A stretch of DNA of 59,702 bases, taken from an uncultured Alphaproteobacteria bacterium (GTDB lineage: Bacteria; Pseudomonadota; Alphaproteobacteria; JAJFIK01). The translations under genes were made by a program, and so were the position numbers. Shown one piece after another: positions 9,507-48,015 of the stretch. The stretch covers positions 1 to 59,702 of the forward strand of contig CAZHDI010000010.1 in NCBI GenBank assembly GCA_964531285.1, read 5' to 3'. The number at the start of each line of letters is the position of its first letter. The stretch's first letter is position 1. The notes under the pieces were generated by a model, which made no database searches, had not been told where the DNA came from, and worked only from the letters and a program-made list of their open reading frames with translations.

Positions 9507-9583
9507 AGGAGACTAGGGCGTGGAGCAGGCGTGGGCACTCCTGGACCATACGATCCAGGAGCCATAAATATGGCGGCCGTTGA

Positions 9584-11476: not shown

Positions 11477-11632
11477 TGCATCCTCCTACGATCAGACTTG
11501 AGACCTGATCATGTCATCATATGACTGATTAACATCGCCTCTCGCGTGCCGGTACAAATTTCGAGACTTCTGCCAAATTAACCGATGGGAAAGCGTAATC
11601 CGGCAAGGTGGGCCGTGCCGATAGGAGGGCAG

Positions 11633-13114
11633 ATGAAAGTTCTGTTTGCTGCATCCGAGCTTTACCCGGTGGCGAAGACGGGCGGACTTGGCGATGTCGC
11701 CCATGCGTTACCGTGCGGGCTTCATCGTCTCGGTAAGGATATCCGGCTTGTTCTTCCGGGTTATCCCCAGGTGCTGGACAGCCTGCGAAACTGGCAGGCC
11801 GAAGAGACGGTTTATTTGAGCGCGGGGTTGACTTATCAACCGCTCCTGGGGCGGATCGATGACATTCCTTTTCCTGTTTGGGTCGTTCGCGCTGATCGTA
11901 TCTACCGGACGACTTCTGATCTTTACCCCGCCGATCCGTTGAACCGCTTTCACCGGTTCCTGACCCTGTCCCATGCCTCGGCTCATCTGGCGGCAGGTGG
12001 ATCGCGCACCGGTTGGCGCCCCGACGTTCTTCATGCCAACGACTGGCATACCGGGATGGCCTTCAATATGCTCGACGCCCTAAGCTGTGACGATGTCGCG
12101 CGTGTCTTCTCGCTTCACAATATCGCGTTTGCCGGGGATTTTCCGCTATCTTACGCGGCGCTCTTTTTATCCGAGACGGGTCCGCTGCGCGGCACGCTTT
12201 ATCGCAAATGGGACAAAGTGTCGTTCCTCGAGGAAGCTTTCATCGCTGCTGACAAGATCGTTACGGTCAGTCCGCGGTATGCGGAGGAAATAACCGGCCC
12301 GGAGTTCGGTTTTGGTTTCGAAACACTGTTGCGTCGGCGGCGCCGCGATCTGTCCGGCATATTGAACGGTGTGGATTATGGTGTCTGGCACCCTGAACAG
12401 GACCCGGCGCTCCCGTTTCCGGGTGCCTCGTTTGGCGGGGACGACAAGCGTGCCGCGAAGCGGCTCATTCAGCAGCGCTTTGGGTTGCCGCTGCGGCCCG
12501 ATTCCGTTCTATGCAGTTTCACCAATCGCCTTACGCATCAGAAGATGATCGATGTGGTGATGGCCGCGGCCGAGCGTCTGGCCGGTACGAGATTTCAATT
12601 TGTCTTCCACGGTATGGGTGAGCCTCAGTATCAGGATCACCTCAAGGCGCTGTCCGGCCGGTATCCGGAGGCAATCGCCTATGTGCCAGGGTTCAATGAA
12701 ACACTTGAGCATATGATGCTTGCGGGGGCTGATCTTTGTTTGTCACCGTCCCGATTCGAGCCATGCGGGCTGAATGCTCTTTATGCGATGCGTTATGGCG
12801 CGGTGCCGGTCGTTTGTCCGGTCGGGGGATTTCGCGATACGATCCGGAATGAGTTTTCCGTCAAGCAGAAGGCCACCGGCAATGGGTTCTATATGGACGG
12901 TGAAACCGGGGCGGATCTTGCGGACGTTCTGATCCGGATCGAACGCCTGATGGACGACGGGCCGTACTGGTCTCAGCTTGTTGATACCGTCAAACGGCAG
13001 CACTTTTCGTGGCGCCATGCGGCGCAGCGTTATGTTGCTCTGTACACCGCGGCGATCGAGGCGAGACGGCTGCGTGCGCCGGAGGCCGCCAACCGCCTTG
13101 CCCAGGCCGTGTGA
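11633..13114 (+). CDS. glgA: glycogen/starch synthase (GT5)
   Basis: MKVLFAASELYPVAKTGGLGDV (KTGGL motif) and RFEPCGL. ATG at 11633 is preceded by GGAGGG. The track ORF starts at 11585. Confidence 0.85.
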   Translation: MKVLFAASELYPVAKTGGLGDVAHALPCGLHRLGKDIRLVLPGYPQVLDSLRNWQAEETVYLSAGLTYQPLLGRIDDIPFPVWVVRADRIYRTTSDLYPADPLNRFHRFLTLSHASAHLAAGGSRTGWRPDVLHANDWHTGMAFNMLDALSCDDVARVFSLHNIAFAGDFPLSYAALFLSETGPLRGTLYRKWDKVSFLEEAFIAADKIVTVSPRYAEEITGPEFGFGFETLLRRRRRDLSGILNGVDYGVWHPEQDPALPFPGASFGGDDKRAAKRLIQQRFGLPLRPDSVLCSFTNRLTHQKMIDVVMAAAERLAGTRFQFVFHGMGEPQYQDHLKALSGRYPEAIAYVPGFNETLEHMMLAGADLCLSPSRFEPCGLNALYAMRYGAVPVVCPVGGFRDTIRNEFSVKQKATGNGFYMDGETGADLADVLIRIERLMDDGPYWSQLVDTVKRQHFSWRHAAQRYVALYTAAIEARRLRAPEAANRLAQAV

Positions 13115-13141
13115 TCCCGCCGGCGGGGAGCCCGTCCGGCC

Positions 13142-13180
13142 GTACGTCAGGTTAACACCTGTTTAGGTGTTCTGACGTAC
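13142..13180 (+). terminator. imperfect hairpin between glgA and glgP (possible attenuator/terminator)
   Basis: GTACGTCAG(gtt)AACACCT-gttt-AGGTGTTCTGACGTAC, 16 paired bases with a 3-nt bulge. Only a weak T-run follows. Confidence 0.35.
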
Positions 13181-13220
13181 TTCTGATCCTCGAGCCGTTC
13201 TCTCAAACTCGGGGTCGTTC

Positions 13221-15704
13221 ATGTCGGGACCTGCACTTTCGCACCAGCCCATGCCGTCAATGATGCCCGGCGATCTCGCCGGACAAATCGCATATACACT
13301 GAAATATGTTCTGTGTATCAATGACGCTGAGATCAGCTTAGGCGACCTCTATGTCGCCTTGGCGCTGAGTGTCCGGAATACCCTTGTTGACGGCCTTGCC
13401 CAGAGCCGGTTGCGCGACCGCAGTCAGGGATGCAAGAAAGTCCATTATCTGTCGATGGAGTTCTTGGTCGGCAAGTGTACGGAGAATAATCTACTCAATC
13501 TGGGTCTCTACGGTGAAGCGGAAACGGCCATCGGTTCTTATGGCTATGCCCTTCCCGATGTCTTGCACATGGAGCATGATCCGGCGCTAGGGAATGGCGG
13601 TCTCGGGCGCCTGGCGGCCTGCTTCCTCGACTCGATGGCGACGCTGGATATCGCCGGGTTTGGTTATGGAATCAACTATGACTATGGCCTGTTCCGGCAG
13701 TCCATATCGAACGGGTATCAGAAGGAGTCGCCGGATGCTTGGCGATCCGATGGGGCGCCCTGGCTTATTGAGCAGCACCACAAGACCAAGATCGTGCCGA
13801 TTTTTGGGAATGTTCTGTCTACGACAGACGGGAATGGTGCCTATAATCCGAGTTGGATGAACTGGCAGACGATTTTGGGTGTGCCATATGATATGCCAAT
13901 CGTCAGCGGAAACGGCACACGGACGAATTTTCTTCGGCTATACTCGGCAAAGGCTTCGGACGAATTCGACATCAAAGTCTTCAATGACGGCGATTATTTC
14001 AAGGCCATAGAGAATAAGATTGACTCGGAGCGGATCTCCAAAATTCTCTATCCTGAGGATAGTCGGGAGGAGGGCAAGGAGCTGCGCCTTCTTCAGGAAT
14101 ACTTCTTTGTTGCATGCGCCATTCGCGACATTGTGGACGACCATCGCCAGCAGGATGGCACGCTGGAGACATTCGCACGTTATAACGCCATTCAGCTCAA
14201 CGACACCCATCCCGCCTTGGCCATTGCAGAGCTCATGCGGCTTATGGTTGACGAACATCGTCTGCCCTGGGAACTCGCCTGGGAGCAAACCCAAGCGGCT
14301 TGTTCCTACACAAACCATACGCTGCTTCCTGAAGCCCTTGAACGGTGGTCCGAACCGCTTCTTGCGCGGGTTCTGCCGCGCCATAATCAGATCATTCGGG
14401 AGATCGACCGGCGCTTTGTTGACGCCATGCTGGCCCGAGGCATCGACCGGGCGGCTATCGATAAAATGTGCATCATCAAAGATAGTAACGATGGCAGCAC
14501 GTCCGAGATCCATATGGCGAATCTGTCGATTATCGGCAGCCATGCGACCAATGGCGTTGCAGCGCTCCATACGGATCTCATCAAGTCGGACCTCGTGCCT
14601 GAGTTCTATCGCGTCTGGCCGGAGCGATTTCAGAACAAGACCAATGGCGTGACGCCGCGCCGCTGGTTGAAGCAAGCCAACCCGCGCCTGGCGGCGCTTA
14701 TCACCGACGCGATTGGGCCCGGATGGATGGACGACCTTTCGGCGCTCCGCGGGCTCGAAGTATTTGCTACGGACAGTCCGTTTCAGGAGAAGTTTCGTGT
14801 CGTGAAGGATAGCGCGAAGCGGGACTTGGCGGCGCTGATCTATACGACAACCCGGATTCGCGTCGATCCCGACACCATCTTCGATATTCAGGTGAAGCGC
14901 ATCCATGAGTATAAGCGGCAGCTGCTCAATGTGCTCCAGATCATCGATACCTATCTTGAGATCAGCGACGGGGGAGCCGTACCGCGAACGCCGGCAACCT
15001 ATGTCTTCTCGGGTAAGGCGGCGCCGGGCTACTTTATGGCCAAGCGCATTATCAAGCTGATCAACGCTGTCGCGACCGTGGTCAATCAAGATCCGACAGT
15101 TTCGCAGCATTTGAAGGTGGCCTATGTGCCCGACTATCGGGTTTCGGTTGCTGAGCGGATCTTTCCGGCGGCAAATCTCAGTGAGCAGATCTCCACCGCC
15201 GGTTTCGAAGCGTCGGGGACCGGCAACATGAAGTTCATGATGAACGGTGCTCTTACGATCGGTACGATGGATGGCGCAAATGTGGAGATTTGCGAAGAGG
15301 CGGGTTCGGAGAATATCTACATCTTCGGTAAATCTGTAGATGAGATCGCCGCCCTCAAAACCGGCGGCTACAATCCGTGGGACTTCTATCATAACAATCC
15401 GCGGATCCAGCGTGTTCTCGATGCCCTCAATAGCGATTTGTTTGCACCGGGAGAGCCGGGTCTGTTCGAGCCGATCTACTATAGCCTGTTGAGCGGCGGC
15501 GATTACTTCTGTTTGCTGGCCGATTTTCAGGATTACGTGGATTGCAAGACCCGCGTCTTGGAGGATTTCCAGGATCAGCAGGACTGGACACGAAAGGCGA
15601 TCCTGAACATCGCCCGATCGGGGAAGTTTTCCTCCGATCGGACGATTGCGGAATATGCGCGGGACATCTGGGGGATTGATCCTTCCAATGCCGGGGCGGC
15701 TTAG
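13221..15704 (+). CDS. glgP: glycogen/maltodextrin phosphorylase (GT35)
   Basis: 827 aa. EASGTGNMKFMMNGALTIGTMDGANVE pyridoxal-phosphate lysine motif, with phosphorylase-like sequence over the full length. Confidence 0.95.
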   Translation: MSGPALSHQPMPSMMPGDLAGQIAYTLKYVLCINDAEISLGDLYVALALSVRNTLVDGLAQSRLRDRSQGCKKVHYLSMEFLVGKCTENNLLNLGLYGEAETAIGSYGYALPDVLHMEHDPALGNGGLGRLAACFLDSMATLDIAGFGYGINYDYGLFRQSISNGYQKESPDAWRSDGAPWLIEQHHKTKIVPIFGNVLSTTDGNGAYNPSWMNWQTILGVPYDMPIVSGNGTRTNFLRLYSAKASDEFDIKVFNDGDYFKAIENKIDSERISKILYPEDSREEGKELRLLQEYFFVACAIRDIVDDHRQQDGTLETFARYNAIQLNDTHPALAIAELMRLMVDEHRLPWELAWEQTQAACSYTNHTLLPEALERWSEPLLARVLPRHNQIIREIDRRFVDAMLARGIDRAAIDKMCIIKDSNDGSTSEIHMANLSIIGSHATNGVAALHTDLIKSDLVPEFYRVWPERFQNKTNGVTPRRWLKQANPRLAALITDAIGPGWMDDLSALRGLEVFATDSPFQEKFRVVKDSAKRDLAALIYTTTRIRVDPDTIFDIQVKRIHEYKRQLLNVLQIIDTYLEISDGGAVPRTPATYVFSGKAAPGYFMAKRIIKLINAVATVVNQDPTVSQHLKVAYVPDYRVSVAERIFPAANLSEQISTAGFEASGTGNMKFMMNGALTIGTMDGANVEICEEAGSENIYIFGKSVDEIAALKTGGYNPWDFYHNNPRIQRVLDALNSDLFAPGEPGLFEPIYYSLLSGGDYFCLLADFQDYVDCKTRVLEDFQDQQDWTRKAILNIARSGKFSSDRTIAEYARDIWGIDPSNAGAA

Positions 15705-15721
15705 CCCGCATACGGGGTGTC

Positions 15722-16684
15722 ATGCGGTTCAAGGCTTTCGATAGGCGGTGCGGAGGGCGAGGCCTTTCGCATGCCGCCATTGGTGTGATCGCCATTGCGT
15801 GTACCGCGTGTGCGTCGCCCCGTCATGACGGCGAGTCGTCTCTGGTCGCCCAGGGGATCCTGTCATCATTCGATGTTCCGCTTAAAGATTTGAGAGAGCG
15901 GCCCGAAGGAGGTGTTATGCGGCGCCTTCTGCACGGCTTTAGTGGCAGTTTGTCTGCCGGCATGCCGCTGGATCTGTCACAGGCAGAAACCACAGAAGGT
16001 GAGGGGCAGCGGGCGCGTGTCGGTAACACGCCGACCCTCAAGGCGACGGTGAAGTACAACCCTGTGAGTGCGTGGTTCGCGACGGGTACGGCCTATATCT
16101 ATCTTGATCGTGATCTTCAGGAGGAGTGGAATCCCGACTTCTCTTATGTCTTCGGGTATGACGATTGGCGCCCTTATACGTTCAGCTTGGTTTATTCGAA
16201 CTATGGCGGCAATCGCTTCAGCCCTGATCGGGCTCAAGGGGCGGAGGTGACCGAGTTCGATGAGGGTACGGTTTCACTGGGATGGAAGTTTCCCATTCCG
16301 GACCGGCTGGCAAAGCCCTTCGTTGTGGCATCAGATGGCGGTATCGGTTGCATCATCGGTTATAACGTCAGTCCACGGTATTTTGACTTGAGATCGTCGG
16401 AGAACCGGTCGTGGAAACAGGCTGCCTCGCTCGGCTGCAAATACATCATCACGGGGAATTGGTATCTCAACTGGACGGCGTTCTATTATCCCAAAGAGTA
16501 TCAACAACAGCCCTGGGACCCGGATTATACCTACGGATTTGGCTACTTCGACTGGCGGCCGGGAACGATTAGTCTTCAGTATAACAATTATTCGGGTAAC
16601 CGTTTTCCAGGGCGGCAGCGCGGTGACGAGACTGGGCGGTTCATCGATGGTGAATTGTCAGTTTCTTGGAGCTGGAGTTTCTGA
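15722..16684 (+). CDS. hypothetical outer-membrane beta-barrel protein with internal duplication
   Basis: Signal or possible lipobox (AIACTAC). Alternating aromatic/Gly-rich strands. Two homologous ~55-aa blocks (W[ND]PD[FY][ST]Y.FGY.DWRP...S[LV].Y[SN]NY[GS]GNRF). C-terminal Phe. The stop lies 2 nt before the next gene. Confidence 0.6.
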   Translation: MRFKAFDRRCGGRGLSHAAIGVIAIACTACASPRHDGESSLVAQGILSSFDVPLKDLRERPEGGVMRRLLHGFSGSLSAGMPLDLSQAETTEGEGQRARVGNTPTLKATVKYNPVSAWFATGTAYIYLDRDLQEEWNPDFSYVFGYDDWRPYTFSLVYSNYGGNRFSPDRAQGAEVTEFDEGTVSLGWKFPIPDRLAKPFVVASDGGIGCIIGYNVSPRYFDLRSSENRSWKQAASLGCKYIITGNWYLNWTAFYYPKEYQQQPWDPDYTYGFGYFDWRPGTISLQYNNYSGNRFPGRQRGDETGRFIDGELSVSWSWSF

Positions 16685-16686
16685 TC

Positions 16687-17934
16687 ATGACGACCGCATT
16701 CTCCTCCATGCTCATCGGACGGCGGAAAAACCTCCTGATCGTTGATGATAGCCAAAGCTTCCGCTTTGTTTTGAAAAAACTGCTGTCCCGCCTCGGTTTC
16801 ACGGTGTTTGAGGCCGGCGACGGCCAGGCCGCGCTTGATATTCTTGCATCCGAGGACATCCCTGTCGTGATCTGCGATTGGGAAATGCCGGGCATGGATG
16901 GTATCGAATTCTGCAGAACGGTGCGGCGTGCCTATCCGGATGACTATAAATATATCCTGATGCTGACGTCCCATGATGAAAGTACGGCCATTGAAGTCCT
17001 TTTCGATGCCGGAGCAGACGATTATATCACCAAGCCACCGGCGATGACGGCTCTGCGTGCCCGTCTTCTGGGCGCCCTGAGGATCGTTTCGCGCTATGAC
17101 GATCTGCGATGGTTCAATAGGGAGCTTCAGGAAAAGAAGGACGCCATCGATAAGTCCTTCGCCAGTATCCGGGACGATCTGCTGGTCGCTGAAACGATCC
17201 AACGTCAATATCTGCCGAATGACTTCGACCCTATTGGTGCGGTTCGCTTCGCCGGGGAATTTTTGCCCGCGTTCCATACGTCAGGCGATATCTTCAATTA
17301 CGTCCCGATCAACGAGACGCAGATTTGTCTGTTTTCGGCCGATGTATCCGGGCATGGCGTGGCGTCGGCCCTCCTTGCCATCACAATCGGTCAAACACTG
17401 TGCTTCGATGGAGATGCGTCGGATGCCACCTTTGTGGTGGATCGGGCCGGCAAGCGCAGAGCGCGTGATCCGGCAGAGGTCGTTGATTGGCTCAATCAAC
17501 GTTTCGCCAATGGCCAGACGGATCATTATTTTACGATAACCTATTGTGTTTTGGACTTGGAAACCTCTGCCCTGCGATATTGTCAGGCAGGGCATTGCCC
17601 GATCATTCGGGTGAATGCGGCCGGTGAGGCATCATTGATCGGGGCCGGGGGGCTGCCGGTTGGAATGCTACCAACCGCCCGATATGAGACCTGTACGATC
17701 GATCTTGAACCTGGTGACCGGATCTATCTCTACTCGGATGGTATCTCGGAAGCCGAGAACGAAACAGATGATATGTACGGACCTGAGTCTATGATGGCAT
17801 CCTTGTCCCAATCGCGGACGGCGTCGCTTGAAGGATCGATCGAACGGCTCTTGCAAGCGGTACAGAGCTGGCAGGCCGCACAGTCTTTCCTTGATGACGT
17901 GTCGATCATCAGTTTCGAATACCAGGCCGCATGA
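16687..17934 (+). CDS. response-regulator receiver fused to PP2C/SpoIIE phosphatase (RsbU-like)
   Basis: REC: LLIVDDSQSF ... VVICDWEMPGMDG ... DDYITKP. PP2C: SGDIFNY ... FSADVSGHGVASAL ... LYSDGISEA. Confidence 0.9.
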   Translation: MTTAFSSMLIGRRKNLLIVDDSQSFRFVLKKLLSRLGFTVFEAGDGQAALDILASEDIPVVICDWEMPGMDGIEFCRTVRRAYPDDYKYILMLTSHDESTAIEVLFDAGADDYITKPPAMTALRARLLGALRIVSRYDDLRWFNRELQEKKDAIDKSFASIRDDLLVAETIQRQYLPNDFDPIGAVRFAGEFLPAFHTSGDIFNYVPINETQICLFSADVSGHGVASALLAITIGQTLCFDGDASDATFVVDRAGKRRARDPAEVVDWLNQRFANGQTDHYFTITYCVLDLETSALRYCQAGHCPIIRVNAAGEASLIGAGGLPVGMLPTARYETCTIDLEPGDRIYLYSDGISEAENETDDMYGPESMMASLSQSRTASLEGSIERLLQAVQSWQAAQSFLDDVSIISFEYQAA

Positions 17935-17960
17935 GCCTGGAAAATGAGGAGATTTGACGA

Positions 17961-18293
17961 ATGCTTATGACCAAGCGGCAGGAAGGCCAGCGTTTGATCC
18001 TGGCTTTGCATGAAAAACGTCTTGATGCGGCCGTTGCGGTCGATTTCAAGGAGCAGGTTGTTCAAGACGTCGACAGCATTGGGACTGATGTCGTCATCGA
18101 TCTTACGGATGTCGAATTCATCGACAGCTCAGGGCTGGGTGCTCTCGTTGCCGTGCTGAAACATGTGAGCGGGAAGGGCCGACTCGTTCTGACGGGGTTG
18201 CGCACGAAGACCGAGCAGATCTTCAAACTGACCCGCATGGACACGGTCTTCGAAATTTATCCGTCCATTGACGAAGCGCTTGAGGCGGCTTGA
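17961..18293 (+). CDS. STAS-domain anti-sigma-factor antagonist (RsbV/SpoIIAA-like)
   Basis: 110 aa. FIDSSGLGALV contains the canonical phosphorylatable Ser. Confidence 0.9.
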   Translation: MLMTKRQEGQRLILALHEKRLDAAVAVDFKEQVVQDVDSIGTDVVIDLTDVEFIDSSGLGALVAVLKHVSGKGRLVLTGLRTKTEQIFKLTRMDTVFEIYPSIDEALEAA

Positions 18294-18314
18294 TCCTTCA
18301 GCAGAGAGAGTGTC

Positions 18315-19505
18315 ATGAAAGCCATGATCCTGTGCGCCGGTCAAGGAACGCGGTTGCGCCCCCTGACTTATGCGGTGCCCAAGCCGATGGTACCCCTCGT
18401 CGACCGGCCCGTGCTGCAGTACATCGTAGAGCACTTGCGCGATCAAGGTGTCGACGATCTCGCGATAAATCTGAGTTATCTGCCGGAGGCGATTCAAAAC
18501 TACTTCCGGGATGGGTCGGCTTATGGCGTGGACGTGACATACTCCTATGAGGGACGGCTCGTCGATGGCGAGTTTAAGGGCGCGGCCATCGGGTCGGCCG
18601 GAGGGCTGCGAAAGGTTCAGGACGAGCTTGATTTCTTTGATGACACGTTTCTGGTGCTCTGCGGCGATGCGGTTATCGATCTCGATATTCGCGCGGCTGT
18701 CCGGCAACACAAAGAGCGCCGGGCCTTAGCGACGATCGTGCTCGCGGATGTGCCGCAGCATGCCGTCTCGAAATACGGGATTGTCGATATGGCCAGTGAC
18801 GGCCGTATATCGGCGTTTCAGGAGAAGCCGGAGATTGCCGAGGCCGTCAGTACGCTGGCAAATACCGGTATTTACATCTTCGAGCCGGAAATCTTCGACC
18901 ATATCCCGACCGGACAAACCATGGACTTGGGCGGGGATCTGTTTCCAAAGCTTACCGAGGGCGGACATGCGATCTATGGCGGGGTCGCCCCCCTTACTTG
19001 GCTCGATATCGGAACCCTTCAAGACTACGCCGCCGCTTCTTTTCGTCTGTTGACTGACCGGTCGGCCGGTATTGATATTCCGGGGCGTGTCGTCGATGAT
19101 CGTTTGCGCACGGGGCCACATGTCACCATGGATCGGAAGGCGGTTACGCTTGAGGGACCGATCTATTTAGGCGGTGGGACGGTTATCGAGGCCGGGGCCC
19201 GCATTATCGGACCGGCGGTCATCGGGCAGAATTGCCGCATCAGCGCGAATGCCGTCGTGCACCAGTCGGTCTTGGGCGATCATGTTCATGCCCGGTCCGG
19301 TGCGATGATCTCGAATGCGGTCATTTCCGGTGGATACTTCATCAATGAAGCCGGTGAATTCATTCATCTGCGCAAATCGGGACCTGTCGGCGACGTGCGT
19401 GAGCCGGCCGGTTCCGGCGCCGATGATATGGCTAGTGACGTTGTCGGCTCTGCGGACGGCGACAGCGCCGTCATCCGTCGGCCGCGACAAGCAAGCGGCC
19501 ATTAG
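18315..19505 (+). CDS. NDP-sugar pyrophosphorylase (sugar-1-phosphate nucleotidyltransferase with C-terminal left-handed beta-helix)
   Basis: MILCAGQGTRLRPLTYAVPKPMVP nucleotidyltransferase signature. C-terminal hexapeptide-like repeats (IGPAVIGQNCRISANAVV). Confidence 0.85.
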   Translation: MKAMILCAGQGTRLRPLTYAVPKPMVPLVDRPVLQYIVEHLRDQGVDDLAINLSYLPEAIQNYFRDGSAYGVDVTYSYEGRLVDGEFKGAAIGSAGGLRKVQDELDFFDDTFLVLCGDAVIDLDIRAAVRQHKERRALATIVLADVPQHAVSKYGIVDMASDGRISAFQEKPEIAEAVSTLANTGIYIFEPEIFDHIPTGQTMDLGGDLFPKLTEGGHAIYGGVAPLTWLDIGTLQDYAAASFRLLTDRSAGIDIPGRVVDDRLRTGPHVTMDRKAVTLEGPIYLGGGTVIEAGARIIGPAVIGQNCRISANAVVHQSVLGDHVHARSGAMISNAVISGGYFINEAGEFIHLRKSGPVGDVREPAGSGADDMASDVVGSADGDSAVIRRPRQASGH

Positions 19506-19506
19506 G

Positions 19507-19974
19507 ATGATGCCGGCCGGGCCGATCGCACAATACCGGATCGCCAGCACATTTCATGCTGTTCGCACCTTGCTCACTGATCTGGGTGACCGTCTTTCCG
19601 GGCAGGTCGATGAAGCAACACTTGCGCGGCTTGAACTATGCTTGGCCGAAGCGCTGAACAACATAGTCGAGCACGGATATCAGGAAAATCCGAATGGCGA
19701 GATCCTGGTGGATACGGACTGGGACGGCGAGGCGGTGCGGACCCGTATCACGGATTTTGGCCGATCCAGTCAAGACGCAAACGGAGCATATCCGGAACCG
19801 GTCCAGGGGCAGCCGGACGATTTGAAAGAGGGTGGGTATGGACTGTCCCTCATTCATACGATTGCCTCGCGCATTGACTATAACTCCGAGGGCGGCCGGA
19901 ATACAACGACGATCTGGCAATCCATAGGGGCAGTGTACCCCGATACGCAGACGGAACGCTTCCCGCAAGCTTAG
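19507..19974 (+). CDS. GHKL anti-sigma-type serine kinase (RsbW/SpoIIAB-like)
   Basis: N-box EALNNIVEHG and G-box GGYGLSLI. ATG at 19507 lies 1 nt after the upstream TAG. The track ORF (19315) overlaps the previous gene out of frame. Confidence 0.85.
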   Translation: MMPAGPIAQYRIASTFHAVRTLLTDLGDRLSGQVDEATLARLELCLAEALNNIVEHGYQENPNGEILVDTDWDGEAVRTRITDFGRSSQDANGAYPEPVQGQPDDLKEGGYGLSLIHTIASRIDYNSEGGRNTTTIWQSIGAVYPDTQTERFPQA

Positions 19975-20064
19975 CGTTTCAAGCTGTGGGTGTTTGTATC
20001 AAGCCGGCGGTCCGGCATGCCGTTTCGTATATCCCCCAACCGGTTTATGCGTCCGGCTGAACCC

Positions 20065-20408
20065 GATGAACTCTTTCCGCTAATACGCGGCCGGATTGCA
20101 AAGACCCATTTGCGGGACGGCGGCGGCGTCGATGCGGTCAGTACGTGACGGTGACGTCATCGGGACGTCGTGCTGACGGACTGGTCCATGCCGGCTATGG
20201 GCGGTTTTAGGGCAACTGTCCGGATACGCCAATATAAAGCCGAGCACGACTACAGGCCGGCGAAAATCCTTGATCTGAGTGCCAATGCCATAACCGAGTA
20301 ACGGGAAGAAGGTCTTGCGGTTGGAATGGACCGGTATCTGAGCAAGCCTATTGTGAAGGGGGATCTGCTCGCCGCGTCTACGCCGCCCAACATCCATCGT
20401 TCGCTTAA
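20065..20408 (+). pseudogene. decayed response-regulator receiver domain (three in-frame stops)
   Basis: One frame reads ...GVDAVST*R*RHRDVVLTDWSMPAMGGFRATVRIRQY...ILDLSANAITE*REEGLAVGMDRYLSKPIVKGDLL. The REC hallmarks (acceptor D, S/T, K) are kept. The frame is broken by TGA at 20146, TGA at 20152 and TAA at 20299, and the N-terminal DD strand is missing. Confidence 0.6.
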
Positions 20409-20471
20409 CCCTCTATTCTCCGCTGGCGTCTTATCCTTTGAGGGCAGGACATTATCGACCGGCGGGCGAGG

Positions 20472-22313
20472 GTGCGCGTGACGCAGTTTTACTTTGAGGC
20501 CTATGAGGACCGGGTGCCGGACCCACCGGTGCCCTACTCGATGATACGCGAGATGCTTTGGCAGTTTCTCGCGACCCTGAGTCTTGCAGTCGGAGGATGG
20601 TACATCCTGTGGCGGTGGACCGAGTCGCTCAATATGGACGCACTTTGGTTTGCCATTCCGCTCGCGACTGCCGAGACTTGCGCATTTATCGGTCTCATCC
20701 TGTTCTATATCAATCTGTGGTCGACAAGAGATCCGGAGCGTCAGCCTGCGCCCTATCTGAAAAGCGAATGCGGTATCGCCAACAGTGCGCCGGATGAGCC
20801 GATCTCGGTCGATATCTTTTTTACGAGCTATGATGAGGATCCCGAACTTGTTCGGTTGAGCCTTCGGGACGCGAAGCGCGTCTATTATCCGCATCCCATC
20901 GATATTCGCATTCATGTCCTGGACGATGGTCGCCGTGAGGCCATGCGGACGGTTGCCGAGGAAGAGCAGGTCGGCTACATCACCCGATCGAACAATGTTG
21001 GGTTCAAGGCTGGAAATCTGCGTAATGGCCTTGAGAAAACATCGGGTGATTTCATCGTGATCTGCGACGCGGACACCCGCCCGTTTCCCACGCTTCTTGA
21101 TCACACCCTGGGGTATTTCAGAGATCCAAATGTCGCTTGGGTTCAAACCCCGCAATGGTTTTTCGACCTTCCTGCAGGCCGTACCCTTGACCGAATCTGG
21201 GAGGATTATGCCGGTCCGCTCGGCCGGGTCGCGGGAAAAGGTATTCAGTCGATCTTTGGGCAGATCACTTTGGGCAAGGATCCTTTCGATAACGATCCCA
21301 AGATGTTTTATGATGTGATCCAGCGCCGCAGGAATGCGCATAACGCCTCATTCTGTTGCGGGGCAGGGTCGATCCATCGCCGGGAAGCCGTGATGGATGC
21401 CGCTTTGAAGGCCTATGCTAACCAAATCGGCCGGTCGGTCGACACGGTGGCCCAAACGGTGGACGATCCGGACCTGCGCCGGGCTCTGCGCAGCGAAATG
21501 GTTCGGGCTCATGTTCGCGACACGGAGTTTACCCCCTACAAGTTTCACGTTTCCGAGGATATCTACACGTCAATTGTGCTCCACGGTGACAAGGATCGGC
21601 GCTGGAAGTCCGTTTTTCATCCAGATGTCGAAACCAAGATGCTCTCGCCGCAGGACCTGCAAGCCTGGACCGTACAGCGCTTCAAATATGCCGGCGGCTC
21701 CCTCGACATCGCTCTTCATGACAACCCGATCCTGACATCCGATATGACGGTCGGCCAGAAACTCATGTATGCCGCGACGTTCTGGTCTTATCTGTCGGGG
21801 CTTTGGAACATCGTGTTTTTATCCGCACCGATCATTTATTTGTTTACCGGTATCGCTCCGGTGGAGGCCTATTCCCACGACTTTTTTGTCCGCATTATTG
21901 CCTTTCTGATTCTGAATGAACTGGCCATGATGGTCGGCACTTGGGGCGTGGAAAACTATCGCGGCAAAGCATATTATCTGGCGTTCTTCCCCCTCAACCT
22001 TCGCGCGCTCTGGACCGTTCTGCGCAGCCAAAAGATCAAGTTCCCGACGACGCCTAAGGAGCGTCAGGACGGGACCTTCCTTTTTCTTGTCCGCCCCCAG
22101 CTGGCTGTCATGATCCTGACGGCCATTGCGATCGTCTACGGCTTCTTCTCATGGCTACAATCGGGGTCCTATAGCGATCTGAGCGCCTATATCGCGAATG
22201 TATTCTGGGGACTGAACAACATTCTTTCATTGGGCGTGATCGTGACAGCCGCACTTTGGAAGCCGCCGACTGAGAAGCCCGAGTTCGCGCCTCTGGCGCT
22301 GAAAGAGGTTTGA
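20472..22313 (+). CDS. processive family-2 glycosyltransferase, cellulose-synthase (BcsA)-like, no PilZ domain
   Basis: TM helices flank a GT-A domain: FFTSYDEDP, VLDDG, ICDADT, QTPQWF, FCCGAGSIHRR, SEDIYTS (the TED equivalent), QRFKYAGG (the QxxRW equivalent), FPTTPKE. GTG start. Ends right after the last TM helix. Confidence 0.9.
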   Translation: MRVTQFYFEAYEDRVPDPPVPYSMIREMLWQFLATLSLAVGGWYILWRWTESLNMDALWFAIPLATAETCAFIGLILFYINLWSTRDPERQPAPYLKSECGIANSAPDEPISVDIFFTSYDEDPELVRLSLRDAKRVYYPHPIDIRIHVLDDGRREAMRTVAEEEQVGYITRSNNVGFKAGNLRNGLEKTSGDFIVICDADTRPFPTLLDHTLGYFRDPNVAWVQTPQWFFDLPAGRTLDRIWEDYAGPLGRVAGKGIQSIFGQITLGKDPFDNDPKMFYDVIQRRRNAHNASFCCGAGSIHRREAVMDAALKAYANQIGRSVDTVAQTVDDPDLRRALRSEMVRAHVRDTEFTPYKFHVSEDIYTSIVLHGDKDRRWKSVFHPDVETKMLSPQDLQAWTVQRFKYAGGSLDIALHDNPILTSDMTVGQKLMYAATFWSYLSGLWNIVFLSAPIIYLFTGIAPVEAYSHDFFVRIIAFLILNELAMMVGTWGVENYRGKAYYLAFFPLNLRALWTVLRSQKIKFPTTPKERQDGTFLFLVRPQLAVMILTAIAIVYGFFSWLQSGSYSDLSAYIANVFWGLNNILSLGVIVTAALWKPPTEKPEFAPLALKEV

Positions 22314-22315
22314 CA

Positions 22316-23644
22316 ATGACATTCACCAAAGGCGTTATGCGTGCCCGCAGTCACATCGTCTTTCTGGTCGGTCTGTGTGCGGCCTTCACACTGATTGTCC
22401 ATCTCGATGCTCTTGGTGCCCGGCAGCGTCCGATCTCGATTGATGTCTTCGAGATTGCTACATCGGAGCAGTCGGCTCCGGCGAAGCCGGTCGGTGCACT
22501 GACCGCTCAGGAAGAAGCGGCTGCGCAAACAGCATGGGTTTACTTCGAGAATAACCTCCAACCGGAGACAGGATTGGTAAACTCCGTTGACGGATATCCG
22601 TCGACGACCATGTGGGACCAGGCCTCCTACATGCTCGCGCTGATTTCGGCGTATCGGCTTGATGTCATCGACTCGAGCATGTTCGACCGGCGAATGACGA
22701 GCCTTTTGACGGCCCTTGCGGCGCTTCCCTTGTTCGACGGCGCGCTCCCGAACAAGGCGTACTCAACCACGTCACTCGCCATGACCGATTATGAAGGTCA
22801 AGTCAGTGAACGGGGCATTGGCTGGTCGGCGCTGGATATCGGACGGATCATGGTGCCGCTCAATATTGTGGTCTGGAATTATCCGCGCTATGCCGGCCTC
22901 GTCAAAGACGTCGTCCAGCACTGGCAGATCGACGCTATGCTGGATGATGGATTTATGATTGGAACACGGACCGATGCGAGTGACAGAACGGAGCGCGTTC
23001 AGGAGGGTCGGATCGGATACGAGGAGTATGCCGCCGCGTCTCTGGGGCTTCTGGGCTATGACGCGAAGCGAGCCGGCAGCTACACGGACTTTCTCCAATT
23101 CGAGCCGATTTACGGTGTCGATGTACCGGTCGATGTGCGCGACGTCAGGAGCTATGGGGCTCATAACTATGTGGTGAGTGAGCCCTACATTCTGGCCGCA
23201 CTGGAATATGGGTGGACATCGGATATGCAGGAATTTGCCTATCGCGTTTATGCGGCGCAGGAACAGCGCTTCCGCCGGACAGGACAACTCACTGCGGTCA
23301 GTGAGGACAATGTCGATCGGCCGCCGTATTTTGTCTACAACACGGTTTTTGCGAATGGGCGGCGCTGGAACACGATCTCCGAGGACGGAGAAGATGTGAG
23401 CGACTTACGCTCTGTTAGCACTAAGGCAGCATTCGGTTGGTACGTTCTTTATCCTAATGACTATACCACCCGGCTCGTCGAAAAGGTCATTGCGCTGTCC
23501 GATCCGGAGAAGGGCTTCTATTCCGGGTGGTATGAAGTGCTCGATGAACCGAACACGGCCATCACGGCCAACACCAATGGAATCATTCTGCAAAGCTTGC
23601 ACTTCAAGAAGTTCGGCAAGCTCGTTCAGCTTTATACGGACTAA
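22316..23644 (+). CDS. periplasmic (alpha/alpha)6-glycosidase-like / DUF3131-like protein, paralogue 1
   Basis: Signal anchor. AWVYFENN...TGLVNSVDGYPSTTMWDQASY ... LPNKAY ... QEGRIGYEEYAA ... AHNYVVSEPY ... PPYFVYNTVF. ATG lies 2 nt after the GT2 stop, with RBS GAAAGAGG. Confidence 0.75.
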   Translation: MTFTKGVMRARSHIVFLVGLCAAFTLIVHLDALGARQRPISIDVFEIATSEQSAPAKPVGALTAQEEAAAQTAWVYFENNLQPETGLVNSVDGYPSTTMWDQASYMLALISAYRLDVIDSSMFDRRMTSLLTALAALPLFDGALPNKAYSTTSLAMTDYEGQVSERGIGWSALDIGRIMVPLNIVVWNYPRYAGLVKDVVQHWQIDAMLDDGFMIGTRTDASDRTERVQEGRIGYEEYAAASLGLLGYDAKRAGSYTDFLQFEPIYGVDVPVDVRDVRSYGAHNYVVSEPYILAALEYGWTSDMQEFAYRVYAAQEQRFRRTGQLTAVSEDNVDRPPYFVYNTVFANGRRWNTISEDGEDVSDLRSVSTKAAFGWYVLYPNDYTTRLVEKVIALSDPEKGFYSGWYEVLDEPNTAITANTNGIILQSLHFKKFGKLVQLYTD

Positions 23645-23656
23645 AGGATAGCGCGG

Positions 23657-39969: not shown

Positions 39970-39998
39970 CCGGCCGGAGTGTGTGGGGAGATCGGGCC

Positions 39999-42327: not shown

Positions 42328-42396
42328 TCCGGCAATGGGGCGAAAAGAAGGTCACGGATCTTCGATTTCTTTCACATCCAATCAACGGGGGATGAG

Positions 42397-43338: not shown

Positions 43339-43398
43339 TGGACGGCGGGCGGGGCGCGCTCAGCGGTCCGCTCAATCCGTCCCGCTAACCGGCATCGC

Positions 43399-43443
43399 GC
43401 CGAAAAAATATCGAAAAAACAAGGCTTTGCAGATTTTTTCGGC
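43399..43443. promoter_or_regulatory. A/T-rich 11-bp perfect inverted repeat in an intergenic region
   Basis: GCCGAAAAAAT (43399-43409) and ATTTTTTCGGC (43433-43443) separated by 23 nt, about 100 nt upstream of the 43549 gene. Confidence 0.3.
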
Positions 43444-43548
43444 CGCGACGGGAAAAAAGATCCCTGATCTGTCCATAAGCCAGCATGCGAGTTCCAAAGC
43501 TGGTTTTCCGATCCCCGAGGGGGGACGCACTGAAGAAAGGGCGTAGCT

Positions 43549-44514: not shown

Positions 44515-44623
44515 GGTCTGCAGGGGAGGGGCCCGCCCGGCACCTCCCCCCACCGTCTTTATCGCTTCTGTCAGGTCTGCGTCAGGGCCGCCCGGTGCGG
44601 CTCAACAGGGAAGGAGTGCCCCC

Positions 44624-48000: not shown

Positions 48001-48015
48001 ACTGGAGGCATTGAC

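What the first reader, a model, noticed from the sequence alone, without database searches (positions are those of the whole stretch)
16687..19974. Sugar-nucleotide pyrophosphorylase embedded inside the partner-switching gene set
The canonical rsbV-rsbW adjacency is split by a 396-aa nucleotidyltransferase/LbH gene. The kinase ATG (19507) starts 1 nt after the transferase TAG, so kinase translation is coupled to the metabolic enzyme and not to its STAS partner. The transferase has the same two-domain layout as GlgC-type enzymes, and no glgC is next to glgA/glgP upstream. This could couple precursor supply and regulatory stoichiometry. Alternatively the transferase itself could be a target of the switch.
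Basis: partly seen in the sequence, partly recalled or inferred. Interest (0 to 1): 0.5.

Follow-up and report, generated by a model that had tools for sequence, protein, structure and literature searches.

The report
Phospho-switch module with embedded UDP-glucose enzyme
A sugar-activating enzyme (a CugP-type UDP-glucose pyrophosphorylase) sits inside a phosphorylation-switch gene set next to a beta-glucan synthase; this pairing recurs across distant bacteria and in some the switch protein is fused to the enzyme, so the switch probably controls precursor supply for a polysaccharide.

Summary
The genes run REC-PP2C phosphatase (16687-17934), STAS (17961-18293), a 396-aa nucleotidyltransferase with an LbH domain (18315-19505), and an RsbW-like kinase (19507-19974) that starts one base after the transferase TAG. 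The transferase is not GlgC. It is a CugP-type (non-GalU) UDP-glucose pyrophosphorylase: it scores 367 bits against PDB 8x7s, 137 bits against GDP-mannose enzymes and about 53 bits against GlgC.

The arrangement is not strain-specific. All 8 non-cyanobacterial species representatives with a close homologue, several metagenome contigs and a cultured Vibrio keep the enzyme among switch genes, in at least six gene orders. About 40 cyanobacterial cugP loci do not.

The strongest evidence is a family of at least 24 natural STAS::transferase fusions. One lies directly upstream of the same GT2 + DUF3131 glucan genes. Every stand-alone STAS with a kinase nearby keeps the phospho-serine (D-S-S-G). The kinase-less and fused copies have lost it.

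Best reading: unphosphorylated STAS acts directly on the enzyme, gating UDP-glucose for a BcsA-like glucan synthase. Direct binding is inferred, not shown. One orthologous EPS cluster has the switch but no transferase, which argues against an obligate link. This is a new variant of enzyme-targeting partner switches.

The parts
11585..13114 (+). glgA-type glycogen/starch synthase (GT5)
   Evidence: Pfam Glyco_transf_5 1.9e-49 and Glycos_transf_1. It is conserved at the head of the cluster in L001, L002 and L006.
13221..15704 (+). glgP glycogen phosphorylase. It would release glucose-1-phosphate, the substrate of the transferase.
   Evidence: Pfam Phosphorylase, 1022.8 bits. It lies directly upstream of the module in L001/2/6, L010 and L166, and is in the L168 module.
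15722..16684 (+). 320-aa conserved protein of unknown family, probably an outer-membrane beta-barrel
   Evidence: No Pfam or NCBIfam hit. It has an internal duplication and a C-terminal ...WSF. Homologues accompany the module in L001/2/6, L166, L173 and L142. The outer-membrane role is inferred.
16687..17934 (+). Response-regulator receiver fused to a PP2C/SpoIIE serine phosphatase (RsbU-like input and phosphatase)
   Evidence: Pfam Response_reg 2.2e-26 and SpoIIE 1.3e-40. The acidic pocket DD, the phospho-acceptor D in VVICDWEMPGMDG, the T in LMLTS and the K in YITKP can be read in the sequence.
17961..18293 (+). Single-domain STAS protein (anti-sigma antagonist type), predicted phospho-serine S56 (codon 18126-18128)
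   Evidence: Pfam STAS 4.6e-17 and TIGR00377 65 bits, above cut-off. The motif FIDSSGLG aligns with YMDSAGLG of TM1442. The D-S-S-G motif is conserved in 21 of 21 kinase-associated relatives.
18315..19505 (+). CugP-type (non-GalU) UTP:glucose-1-phosphate uridylyltransferase, with an NTP_transferase domain plus a left-handed beta-helix
   Evidence: Pfam NTP_transferase 2.7e-52 and Hexapep. PDB 8x7s 'UTP--glucose-1-phosphate uridylyltransferase' scores 366.9 bits over residues 1-354; the next best is GDP-mannose pyrophosphorylase at 137 bits. It is 47-53% identical to cyanobacterial CugP-type proteins.
19507..19974 (+). RsbW/SpoIIAB-like serine kinase (HATPase_c_2)
   Evidence: Pfam HATPase_c_2 8e-24. 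PDB RsbW 6m36 6e-07 and SpoIIAB 1th8 7e-06. The N-box EALNNIVEH, G1 DFG and G2 GGYGLSL can be read in the sequence. The ATG lies 1 nt after the transferase stop.
19975..20471 (.). 497-nt non-coding gap between the switch operon and the synthase gene; relatives carry a GH2 gene here
   Evidence: No credible ORF. There is no GH2 remnant by tblastn. A weak terminator-like hairpin at 20005-20022 is at chance frequency.
20472..22313 (+). BcsA-like family-2 processive glycosyltransferase without a PilZ domain; presumed UDP-glucose-using beta-glucan synthase
   Evidence: Pfam Glycos_transf_2 and Glyco_tranf_2_3. TIGR03030 CelA scores 211.7 bits, below the 699 cut-off. PDB BcsA 7lby scores 120 bits. 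It follows the module in L001/2/6, L166, L173, L142 and L175.
22310..28578 (+). Four tandem DUF3131 paralogues (22310-23644, 23657-25153, 25092-26546, 26413-28578), predicted (alpha/alpha)6 glucan-processing enzymes
   Evidence: Pfam DUF3131 from 3e-146 to 9e-102. The AlphaFold2 model of the first paralogue (pLDDT 67.7) matches beta-1,2-glucanase clan structures 8xuj, 8rf0, 5gzh, 6imu and 8xuk, with Foldseek E from 5e-9 to 1e-4 and TM about 0.5-0.56.

Best explanation
The 396-aa gene encodes a CugP-type UDP-glucose pyrophosphorylase that is an integral part of a STAS-centred phospho-switch. The proposed pathway is as follows. GlgP releases glucose-1-phosphate. The enzyme converts it with UTP to UDP-glucose. 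The BcsA-like GT2 polymerises a beta-glucan, which the DUF3131 enzymes process and the 320-aa protein may export. The proposed control is as follows. The STAS protein in its unphosphorylated form binds and activates (or tethers) the pyrophosphorylase. The RsbW-like kinase phosphorylates STAS on S56 and switches it off. The receiver-PP2C phosphatase, driven by an unidentified phosphorelay, switches it back on. SHOWN: the domain identities, the intact catalytic and phospho-site motifs, the CugP affiliation, conservation of the interleaved genes across lineages, the existence of STAS::enzyme fusions, and the correlation between kinase presence and phospho-serine retention. INFERRED: physical STAS-enzyme binding, the direction of the effect, the UDP-glucose product, the polymer made, and translational coupling of the kinase to the enzyme.
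For: (1) Enzyme identity. PDB 8x7s (a UTP-glucose-1-P uridylyltransferase) scores 367 bits, against 137 for GDP-mannose PPases, 53 for GlgC and about 60 for GalU. The gene groups with cyanobacterial CugP-type proteins.
(2) Linkage. All 8 non-cyanobacterial GTDB species representatives with at least 45% identity carry PP2C, STAS or kinase genes next to the enzyme. About 40 cyanobacterial loci carry none. Further examples are L002-4, L089, L095, L102, L162, L114, L138, L166 and the cultured Vibrio sp. THAF190c (L173).
(3) Gene order is permuted (P-S-N-K, P-N-K-S, P-N-S-K, S-N-K, P::S-N-K, S-K-P..N), yet the enzyme stays inside or next to the switch genes. That argues for selection rather than shared descent of one operon.
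(4) Rosetta stone. At least 12 of the top 150 representative homologues, and 24 proteins in all, are STAS::NTP_transferase-LbH fusions of about 495 aa. Pfam finds STAS at 4e-10 to 5e-8. hhalign of their N-termini against the stand-alone STAS profile gives 99.1% probability and E 6e-19. The AlphaFold2 model of fusion P0404 has a confident STAS fold joined to the enzyme with no low-confidence linker (pTM 0.74).
(5) Fusion P0404 sits immediately upstream of the same GT2 + DUF3131 genes, with no kinase or phosphatase within 8 kb. L142 has a separate STAS followed by the enzyme, GT2 and DUF3131, again without a kinase.
(6) Phospho-site correlation. D-S-S-G is kept in 21 of 21 STAS proteins with a kinase nearby. 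It is replaced by Ala in L142 and by F/L/M/Y/A/D/E in 23 of 24 fusions. STAS plus enzyme therefore looks like the core pair, with phosphorylation as an added layer.
(7) No sigma-factor gene was found among the window ORFs scanned.
(8) Precedent. The Anabaena STAS-fused glycosyltransferase All4160 is inactivated by phosphorylation and reactivated by the PP2C HenR (PMC13555669).
Against: L171 is an orthologous EPS cluster to L034 (PP2C 58%, STAS 67%, Wzx 71% identical). It has the complete switch but no transferase. L172 likewise has a switch plus polysaccharide export genes and no transferase. In those lineages the switch must therefore have another or an additional target.
The wider REC-PP2C family (32-38% identity) is mostly not linked to the enzyme.
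The fusions form a separate transferase clade, only 32-38% identical to the window enzyme. The genomic context of only one fusion could be examined.
The PSS-linked enzymes show no obvious insertion or extra domain relative to cyanobacterial CugP.
No interaction, activity or phosphorylation data exist.
Confidence: 0.5

Rival explanations
1. Co-expression only. The transferase is ordinary pathway cargo that supplies UDP-glucose. It is transcribed with the switch because both are needed for polysaccharide production. The switch acts on something else: the synthase, the export machinery, a diguanylate cyclase, or a sigma factor encoded elsewhere, as with SypA, whose target is unknown.
For: L171 and L172 carry the same kind of switch at the head of EPS clusters without any transferase. 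In L114 the switch is followed by two sugar-nucleotide enzymes, ManC and the CugP-like one, as expected for plain precursor genes. The polysaccharide machinery next to the module differs between lineages: GT2/DUF3131 in some, Wzx/Wzy/Wza in others.
Against: This does not explain the recurrent STAS::transferase fusions. It also does not explain the kinase-less STAS + transferase pairs in front of the same GT2/DUF3131 genes, nor the loss of the phospho-serine exactly there. Nor does it explain why every close non-cyanobacterial homologue found is switch-linked.
Confidence: 0.28
2. Anti-sigma-like sequestration. The RsbW-like kinase binds and inhibits the transferase in place of a sigma factor, and unphosphorylated STAS frees the enzyme by capturing the kinase. 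This would explain why the kinase gene follows the transferase gene so closely.
For: The transferase-kinase adjacency holds in about 12 of 18 arrangements, with gaps of 8 nt or less in the window, L034, L039 and L046. The transferase occupies the place beside rsbW that sigB occupies in the classical operon.
Against: Fused and kinase-less variants (L175, L142) show that the STAS-transferase pairing persists with no kinase at all. In L070, L102 and L162 the STAS gene separates the transferase from the kinase.
Confidence: 0.08
3. GlgC replacement. The enzyme supplies the nucleotide-glucose for the adjacent GlgA, so the switch regulates glycogen synthesis in place of GlgC allostery. This could hold alone or together with feeding the beta-glucan synthase.
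For: No glgC lies in the window. glgA and glgP flank the module in the alphaproteobacterial loci, and in L010 the triplet lies between glgP and glgA.
Against: The enzyme is CugP-type, a family reported as UTP-specific (my recollection of Maeda et al. 2014; the paper is not held). Bacterial GlgA normally uses ADP-glucose. The Vibrio, Chromatiales and fusion loci have no glg genes. The rest of each genome could not be searched for glgC.
Confidence: 0.1

Closest known systems
CugP, the non-GalU UDP-glucose pyrophosphorylase of cyanobacteria (Synechocystis sll1558 type; PDB 8x7s)
   Same: Same two-domain layout (NTP_transferase plus a left-handed beta-helix). About 50% identity over 354 residues. 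The G-x-G-T-R loop and the C-terminal D-x-R motif are conserved.
   Different: Cyanobacterial cugP genes stand alone, with no STAS, kinase or PP2C within 10 kb in about 40 loci. Here and in other non-cyanobacteria the gene is embedded in a phospho-switch next to polysaccharide genes.
RsbU-RsbV-RsbW / SpoIIE-SpoIIAA-SpoIIAB partner-switching systems
   Same: A PP2C phosphatase, a STAS protein with the D-S-x-G phospho-site, and a HATPase_c_2 serine kinase.
   Different: There is no sigma-factor gene beside the kinase, and none was found among the window ORFs scanned. A metabolic enzyme occupies the operon position next to the kinase. Input comes through a receiver domain.
HenR / All4160 / Alr3423 of Anabaena PCC 7120 (PMC13555669)
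   Same: A PP2C and kinase pair toggles a STAS serine to control a polysaccharide-biosynthesis enzyme directly, and the unphosphorylated form is active. Relatives of the window enzyme are likewise fused to STAS.
   Different: The target there is a glycosyltransferase with a fused, phosphorylatable STAS. Here the candidate target is a sugar-nucleotide pyrophosphorylase and STAS is a separate protein. The fused relatives have lost the phospho-site.
SypE / SypA of Vibrio fischeri (syp polysaccharide locus)
   Same: A STAS protein phosphorylated on Ser56, encoded inside a polysaccharide locus. Unphosphorylated STAS promotes polysaccharide and biofilm production through an unknown non-sigma target (PMC8256260).
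   Different: In SypE the kinase and phosphatase are domains of one response regulator. To my knowledge the syp locus has no nucleotidyltransferase.
SiaABCD of Pseudomonas aeruginosa (PMC8457831)
   Same: A partner-switch-like protein directly activates an enzyme, the diguanylate cyclase SiaD (abstract seen). That SiaA is a PP2C and SiaB a kinase acting on SiaC is from my own knowledge.
   Different: The switch protein has a different fold family and the enzyme class differs. The output is a second messenger, not a biosynthetic precursor.
GlgC (ADP-glucose pyrophosphorylase)
   Same: Same overall NTP_transferase + LbH architecture. Both perform the precursor-committing step for a glucan.
   Different: TIGR02091 scores 122.9 bits against a 424.9 cut-off, and PDB GlgC scores about 53 bits against 367 for CugP. 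GlgC is regulated allosterically by metabolites, not by a STAS partner.

Membership tests
CugP-type (non-GalU) UDP-glucose pyrophosphorylase | N-terminal NTP_transferase fold with the G-x-G-T-R nucleotide loop | tested here: met
   PF00483 2.7e-52 over residues 2-243. The loop LCAGQGTRLRP is invariant in the alignment.
CugP-type (non-GalU) UDP-glucose pyrophosphorylase | C-terminal left-handed beta-helix domain, which GalU lacks | tested here: met
   Hexapep scores 28.4 bits (cut-off 27). LbH_EIF2B and Hexapep_GlmU hits cover residues 270-345.
CugP-type (non-GalU) UDP-glucose pyrophosphorylase | Closer to characterised or solved CugP than to any other sugar-1-P nucleotidyltransferase family | tested here: met
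   8x7s scores 366.9 bits, GDP-mannose PPase 137, GalU 66 or less, GlgC about 53, RmlA about 53. The gene falls in a clade with cyanobacterial CugP, but that clade has only 57% NJ bootstrap support.
CugP-type (non-GalU) UDP-glucose pyrophosphorylase | Specific UTP + glucose-1-phosphate activity | not testable with these tools
   This needs an enzyme assay with G1P or M1P and UTP, ATP, GTP or dTTP.
GlgC (ADP-glucose pyrophosphorylase) | Scores above the curated equivalog models | tested here: not met
   TIGR02091 scores 122.9 against 424.9. NF003670 scores 115.3 against 470.
Partner-switching system (RsbU/V/W type) | PP2C/SpoIIE-type serine phosphatase | tested here: met
   PF07228 1.3e-40 over residues 210-411.
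Partner-switching system (RsbU/V/W type) | STAS protein with the conserved phosphorylatable serine | tested here: met
   TIGR00377 scores 65.2 against a 53.45 cut-off. S56 in FIDSSGLG aligns to the D-S-A-G site of TM1442.
Partner-switching system (RsbU/V/W type) | HATPase_c_2 serine kinase / anti-sigma factor | tested here: met
   PF13581 8e-24. It matches RsbW and SpoIIAB structures.
Partner-switching system (RsbU/V/W type) | Cognate sigma factor as the third partner, usually encoded beside the kinase | tested here: not met
   No sigma-factor domain was found in any of the 38 window ORFs scanned with Pfam. A sigma factor encoded elsewhere in the genome cannot be excluded.
Partner-switching system (RsbU/V/W type) | Phosphorylation-dependent exchange of binding partners | not testable with these tools
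   This needs biochemistry: Phos-tag gels, pull-downs or two-hybrid assays.
Enzyme-targeting STAS switches (All4160/HenR-like) | STAS physically coupled to a polysaccharide-pathway enzyme | tested here: inconclusive
   It is not fused in the window. At least 24 homologous STAS::transferase fusions exist, one in the same GT2/DUF3131 context. Binding in trans is untested.
BcsA-type cellulose synthase (for the adjacent GT2) | GT2 catalytic core plus a C-terminal PilZ c-di-GMP receptor | tested here: not met
   The GT2 core matches BcsA (PDB 7lby, 120 bits). TIGR03030 scores 211.7 against 699.1, and there is no PilZ hit.

The most novel reading that the evidence does not exclude
STAS proteins are direct regulators of CugP-family UDP-glucose pyrophosphorylases. 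A phospho-switch, fed by a two-component relay, would gate the precursor-supply step of glucan or exopolysaccharide synthesis rather than transcription or the polymerase. STAS plus enzyme would be the ancient core pair: fused in one clade, kinase-regulated in others and lost in cyanobacteria. The module would feed an uncharacterised BcsA-like/DUF3131 beta-glucan pathway whose DUF3131 enzymes belong to the beta-1,2-glucanase structural clan.
Probability: 0.4. Interest if true: 0.72.

Novelty: new variant of a known kind. Interest (0 to 1): 0.62.

Why it matters
Partner switches are textbook regulators of sigma factors. Only a few are known to act on enzymes: the SiaC-SiaD diguanylate cyclase pair and the Anabaena STAS-glycosyltransferase reported in 2026. 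For polysaccharide-locus switches such as SypA the target is still unknown.

A conserved pairing of STAS with a sugar-nucleotide pyrophosphorylase, fused in some bacteria, would put a post-translational checkpoint at the precursor-supply step of glucan or biofilm-matrix synthesis. It also offers a concrete candidate class of STAS targets to test.

The result further shows that CugP, regarded as a cyanobacterial housekeeping enzyme, has non-cyanobacterial relatives that are nearly always under such a switch. It points to an undescribed beta-glucan gene set (PilZ-less BcsA-like GT2, four DUF3131 paralogues, an outer-membrane-like protein). The module is present in a cultured Vibrio (NZ_CP045339.1), so the hypothesis can be tested directly.

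Tried and rejected
- **GlgC, GDP-mannose, RmlA or GalU identity for the transferase.** Rejected on model cut-offs and PDB scores.
- **Sigma factor in the window.** None found among the ORFs scanned.
- **RNA elements.** No Rfam family and no tRNA in the window.
- **Promoter and terminator scan of 11-23 kb.** Counts are at shuffle level, so it is uninformative about operon ends.
- **GH2 pseudogene in the 497-nt gap.** No remnant.
- **Reciprocal test with the REC-PP2C protein.** Close relatives (49-56%) are all in the same cluster, but the wider family (32-38%) is mostly unlinked to the transferase. These include orphans with an Hpt gene in Rhodobacteraceae, a Desulfatibacillum orphan and a Planctomycetota STAS-only locus. 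The NJ tree of phosphatases does not resolve a single origin.
- **Features specific to switch-linked transferases.** No insertion or extra domain relative to cyanobacterial CugP.
- **Actinobacterial homologues.** No STAS neighbour was detected except on two Streptomyces plasmids.
- **PDB sequence searches for DUF3131 and DUF4301.** No hits.
- **Literature.** No paper holds 'anti-sigma factor antagonist' together with 'mannose-1-phosphate guanylyltransferase'. No relevant paper holds 'STAS domain' together with 'UDP-glucose'. The original CugP paper (Maeda 2014) is not held, and no paper was found for 8X7S.
- **Failed look-ups.** The context look-up of fusion P0402 (Pseudaestuariivita) failed. 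The first bootstrap script timed out.
- **Complex prediction.** STAS-enzyme or kinase-enzyme complex prediction was not possible with the structure tool, which accepts single chains only.

Full report
**1. Observation**

The six-frame ORF list and direct reading of the junctions confirm every coordinate in the finding.
- A receiver + PP2C protein runs from ATG 16687 to 17934.
- A 110-aa STAS protein runs 17961-18293.
- A 396-aa nucleotidyltransferase runs 18315-19505 and ends in TAG at 19503-19505.
- The HATPase_c_2 kinase is in frame from ATG 19507, after a single spacer base, to 19974.

Intergenic distances from glgP through the kinase are 17, 2, 26, 21 and 1 nt, so this looks like one operon. 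A 497-nt gap then precedes the next gene. A profile search of all window ORFs finds no second NTP_transferase, so there is no glgC in the window.

**2. Gene identities**

Pfam and NCBIfam give the following:
- PP2C protein: Response_reg 2.2e-26 and SpoIIE 1.3e-40.
- STAS: 4.6e-17, and above the TIGR00377 cut-off.
- Transferase: NTP_transferase 2.7e-52 plus hexapeptide/LbH.
- Kinase: HATPase_c_2 8e-24.

The receiver keeps its acidic pocket, phospho-acceptor Asp, Thr and Lys. The kinase keeps its N, G1 and G2 boxes (sequence). It matches RsbW and SpoIIAB structures. STAS Ser56 sits in FIDSSGLG, which aligns with the phospho-site of TM1442.

Upstream lie glgA, glgP and a conserved 320-aa protein with no family hit. 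Downstream lie a BcsA-like GT2 without PilZ (PDB 7lby, 120 bits) and four tandem DUF3131 genes. No sigma-factor gene was found among the 38 window ORFs scanned with Pfam.

**3. What the transferase is**

It is not GlgC. TIGR02091 scores 122.9 bits against a 424.9 cut-off. Against the PDB, the best hit by far is 8x7s, 'UTP--glucose-1-phosphate uridylyltransferase'. It scores 366.9 bits at about 50% identity over residues 1-354. GDP-mannose pyrophosphorylases score 137 bits, GalU 66 or less, and GlgC about 53.

In the large protein collection, the nearest neighbours are a small unnamed group at 54-58% identity. Next come hundreds of cyanobacterial proteins at 47-53%, named NDP-sugar synthase or UTP-glucose-1-phosphate uridylyltransferase. 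This is the CugP family, the non-GalU UDP-glucose pyrophosphorylase of cyanobacteria. My recollection of Maeda et al. 2014 is that the enzyme is specific for UTP and G1P; that paper is not held. A 2026 PNAS paper describes CugP in the same terms (PMC13506006). The alignment shows no insertion that sets the window enzyme apart from cyanobacterial CugP.

**4. Conservation**

Context look-ups for the 58%-identical homologues return the same cluster: glgA-(GH13-GH77)-glgP-306aa-REC/PP2C-STAS-transferase-kinase-(GH2)-GT2-4xDUF3131. One of these is a complete Parvularculaceae chromosome.

A scan of one genome per GTDB species returned 80 loci. Searches with the window proteins and with profiles built from them gave the following.
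- All eight non-cyanobacterial loci with at least 45% identity have switch genes touching the transferase. They come from Parvularculaceae, Caulobacterales, an alphaproteobacterial MAG, two Gammaproteobacteria, Chromatiales, Rhodothermales and one unclassified bacterium.
- About 40 cyanobacterial loci have none.
- More distant homologues below 42% identity have none.

A metagenome scan added L089, L095, L102, L162, L114, L138 and L142. A plasmid/chromid search found the module in a cultured strain, Vibrio sp. THAF190c. There the order is REC/PP2C-STAS-transferase-kinase-GT2-3xDUF3131, confirmed by Pfam.

Gene order varies. With P = phosphatase, S = STAS, N = transferase and K = kinase, the orders seen are:
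- P-S-N-K: window, L001, L002, L006, L095, L173
- S-N-K: L010
- P::S fusion-N-K: L166
- P-N-K-S: L012, L089, L034, L046
- P-N-K: L039
- P-N-S-K: L070
- N-S-K: L102, L162
- S-K-P-ManC-N: L114

Persistence through rearrangement is a classical sign of functional coupling.

**5. Fusions and the phospho-site**

An exhaustive search of 1.84 billion representative proteins showed at least 12 proteins of 488-500 aa among the top 150 in which the transferase match starts at residue about 120.
- Pfam finds a STAS domain in the N-terminal extension (P0265 4e-10, P0279 7.5e-9, P0289 5.3e-8).
- A follow-up search found more, 24 in all.
- Profile-profile alignment of their N-termini to the stand-alone STAS proteins of the switch-linked loci gives 99.1% probability, E 6e-19, over the full 109 columns.
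- An AlphaFold2 model of one fusion (P0404) has a confident STAS fold (pLDDT 84-93). It runs straight into the first strand of the transferase with no low-confidence linker (pTM 0.74).

P0404 lies between an OpgC-like acyltransferase and the same GT2 + DUF3131 genes as in the window, with no kinase or phosphatase within 8 kb. L142 has a separate STAS gene 20 nt upstream of the transferase, followed by GT2-DUF3131-DUF3131 and a homologue of the 320-aa protein, again without a kinase.

The phospho-site tracks the kinase.
- All 21 stand-alone STAS proteins with a kinase nearby keep D-S-S-G.
- L142 has D-A-S-G.
- The 24 fusions carry F, L, M, Y, A, H, I, D or E at that position, with one Thr.

The simplest reading is that STAS plus transferase is the core functional pair. 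The kinase and phosphatase are a regulatory layer added in some lineages. The mostly hydrophobic replacements suggest that the unphosphorylated state is the active one. This matches SypA (PMC8256260) and the Anabaena STAS-glycosyltransferase All4160 (PMC13555669).

**6. Pathway context**

The module always sits in polysaccharide loci.
- One type has the BcsA-like GT2, DUF3131 paralogues and the 320-aa protein. It is often preceded by glycogen genes (window, L001/2/6, L166, L173, L142, L175).
- The other type is Wzx/Wzy/Wza-dependent EPS. L034 has a Wza-like exporter, GH9, a divergent H-NOX + hybrid kinase, a flippase, an acetyltransferase and three GT4 genes. L012, L070 and L114 are similar.

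GlgP directly upstream would supply glucose-1-phosphate. A UDP-forming BcsA-like synthase downstream would consume UDP-glucose.

An AlphaFold2 model of the first DUF3131 protein (pLDDT 67.7, pTM 0.74) matches mostly beta-1,2-glucanase-clan structures. Among the top hits are EeSGL1 8xuj, the cyclic glucan synthase 8rf0, GH144 5gzh, GH162 6imu and PgSGL3 8xuk, with E from 5e-9 to 1e-4 and TM 0.5-0.56. These families are described in PMC12102758. The polymer is therefore probably a beta-glucan. Its linkage is unknown, because GH9, GH2 and GH16 neighbours in relatives point in different directions.

**7. Counter-evidence**

- L171 is orthologous to the L034 EPS cluster (PP2C 58%, kinase 52%, STAS 67%, Phosphodiest 75%, Wzx 71% identity). 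It lacks the transferase between phosphatase and kinase.
- L172 has a REC-PP2C-kinase fusion, STAS and a polysaccharide exporter without the transferase.
- The broader REC-PP2C family is mostly unlinked. A phosphatase tree does not prove a single origin of the linked modules.
- The fusion transferases form their own clade (93% NJ bootstrap), at only 32-38% identity to the window enzyme. The clade joining the window enzyme, the other switch-linked enzymes and cyanobacterial CugP has only 57% support.

So the switch can work without this enzyme in some bacteria, and direct control in the window organism remains an inference.

**8. Mechanism and rivals**

Best model (confidence about 0.5): a phosphorelay acts on the receiver-PP2C, which dephosphorylates STAS-S56. 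Unphosphorylated STAS binds the CugP-type enzyme and activates or localises it. UDP-glucose then flows to the GT2 synthase, and the kinase resets the switch.

Rivals:
- The enzyme is merely co-expressed cargo and the switch targets something else (about 0.28).
- The kinase sequesters the enzyme like an anti-sigma factor (about 0.08). The kinase-less STAS-enzyme pairs argue against this.
- The enzyme replaces GlgC for GlgA (about 0.1). This is not exclusive of the other models.

**9. Comparison and novelty**

The parts are ordinary members of known families: CugP, RsbU-like PP2C, RsbV-like STAS and RsbW-like kinase. The classical partner-switch definition fails on its output, because no sigma factor was found in the window.

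The nearest functional analogues are the enzyme-targeting switches:
- HenR/All4160/Alr3423, where the target is a glycosyltransferase with a fused STAS.
- SiaABCD, where the target is a diguanylate cyclase.
- SypE/SypA, where the target is unknown.

Full-text searches found no description of a STAS or partner-switch link to a sugar-nucleotide pyrophosphorylase. I therefore class this as a new variant of a known kind. It is moderately to clearly interesting, and it is testable because the module occurs in a cultured Vibrio.

**10. Limits**

- Trees are neighbour-joining only.
- Metagenome contigs carry no taxonomy.
- Only one fusion context could be read.
- Whole genomes could not be searched for glgC, galU or sigma factors.
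- No complex prediction was possible.

Noticed in passing
window 22310-28578: Four tandem DUF3131 paralogues (34-40% identical to the first). DUF3131 has no described function. An AlphaFold2 model of the first (pLDDT 67.7) matches beta-1,2-glucanase-clan (alpha/alpha)6 structures (GH192, GH189, GH144, GH162, GH194) with Foldseek E from 5e-9 to 1e-4. There is no sequence-level PDB hit. Together with the PilZ-less BcsA-like GT2, this looks like an undescribed beta-glucan synthesis and processing gene set.
   Followed up: partly
window 15722-16684: A 320-aa protein with no Pfam or NCBIfam hit. It has an internal duplication (…YSNYGGNRF… / …YNNYSGNRF…) and a C-terminal WSF, which suggests an outer-membrane beta-barrel. 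Homologues travel with the module in Parvularculaceae, Caulobacterales, L166, Vibrio (opposite strand) and L142.
   Followed up: partly
window 6031-11476; L173 534-6044: An RTX repeat protein (630 aa) with its ABC/HlyD type I secretion genes lies just upstream of glgA in the window. An 1836-aa RTX protein lies just upstream of the same module in Vibrio sp. THAF190c. This may be a shared biofilm-matrix island or a coincidence.
   Followed up: no
window about 8000-28000: G+C is 0.54-0.58 across the RTX/glycogen/switch/glucan block, against 0.60-0.64 in both flanks. Third-position GC of the cluster genes is below that of flanking genes. With the same cluster present in Alpha- and Gammaproteobacteria, this suggests horizontal acquisition.
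   Followed up: no
window 19975-20471 and 13115-13220: Relatives carry a GH2 gene between the kinase and GT2, and GH13 + GH77 genes between glgA and glgP. The window lacks all three, and no GH2 remnant is left in the 497-nt gap. A weak terminator-like hairpin lies at 20005-20022.
   Followed up: partly
window 20472-22313: The GT2 synthase reads VSEDIYTS and VQRFKYAGG where BcsA-type enzymes have TED and QxxRW (sequence; motif knowledge is from memory). It has no PilZ domain, so it cannot be gated by c-di-GMP in the BcsA manner.
   Followed up: no
L034 12031-13221; L039 5539-6699; L171 8462-9673: In the Wzx/Wzy-type clusters a 'Phosphodiest' (PF01663, nucleotide pyrophosphatase/phosphodiesterase superfamily) gene always follows the switch genes, with or without the transferase. 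In L034 an H-NOX gene and a hybrid histidine kinase sit divergently upstream, a candidate input for the receiver-PP2C.
   Followed up: no
L168 7001-15242 (Calditrichia MAG): The locus reads REC/PP2C - DUF4301 - STAS - kinase - inorganic pyrophosphatase - glgP - second STAS - polysaccharide exporter. A protein of unknown function occupies the place the transferase has elsewhere, next to a pyrophosphatase. DUF4301 has no PDB sequence hit.
   Followed up: no
L174 6624-9505 (Streptomyces sp. NBC_01022 plasmid; also NBC_00464): A STAS gene overlaps by 4 nt the start of an 834-aa transferase gene, probably a nucleotidyltransferase-LbH-phosphomannomutase fusion like the ~800-aa homologues P0264 and P0270. 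The STAS protein has Thr at the phospho-site position. No STAS neighbour was detected in other actinobacterial loci.
   Followed up: partly
L114 2896-12769: The locus reads Wzx - STAS - kinase - REC/PP2C - ManC (GDP-mannose pyrophosphorylase/isomerase) - CugP-like transferase - two GT4 genes. Here two sugar-nucleotide enzymes follow the switch.
   Followed up: partly
window 39957-50535: A run of + strand ORFs (479, 313, 321, 580, 186 and 462 aa) has no Pfam hit. They are interspersed with an SLT lytic transglycosylase (45040-46257) and an OmpA-domain protein (49993-50535). This may be an uncharacterised envelope or secretion apparatus.
   Followed up: no
NJ tree of transferases: Cyanobacterial CugP (100% bootstrap as a group) nests among switch-linked non-cyanobacterial enzymes, with an Acidiferrobacteraceae protein as sister (78%). 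If this holds in a proper phylogeny, cyanobacterial CugP would descend from a STAS-associated family, rather than the non-cyanobacterial copies being recent transfers out of cyanobacteria.
   Followed up: partly
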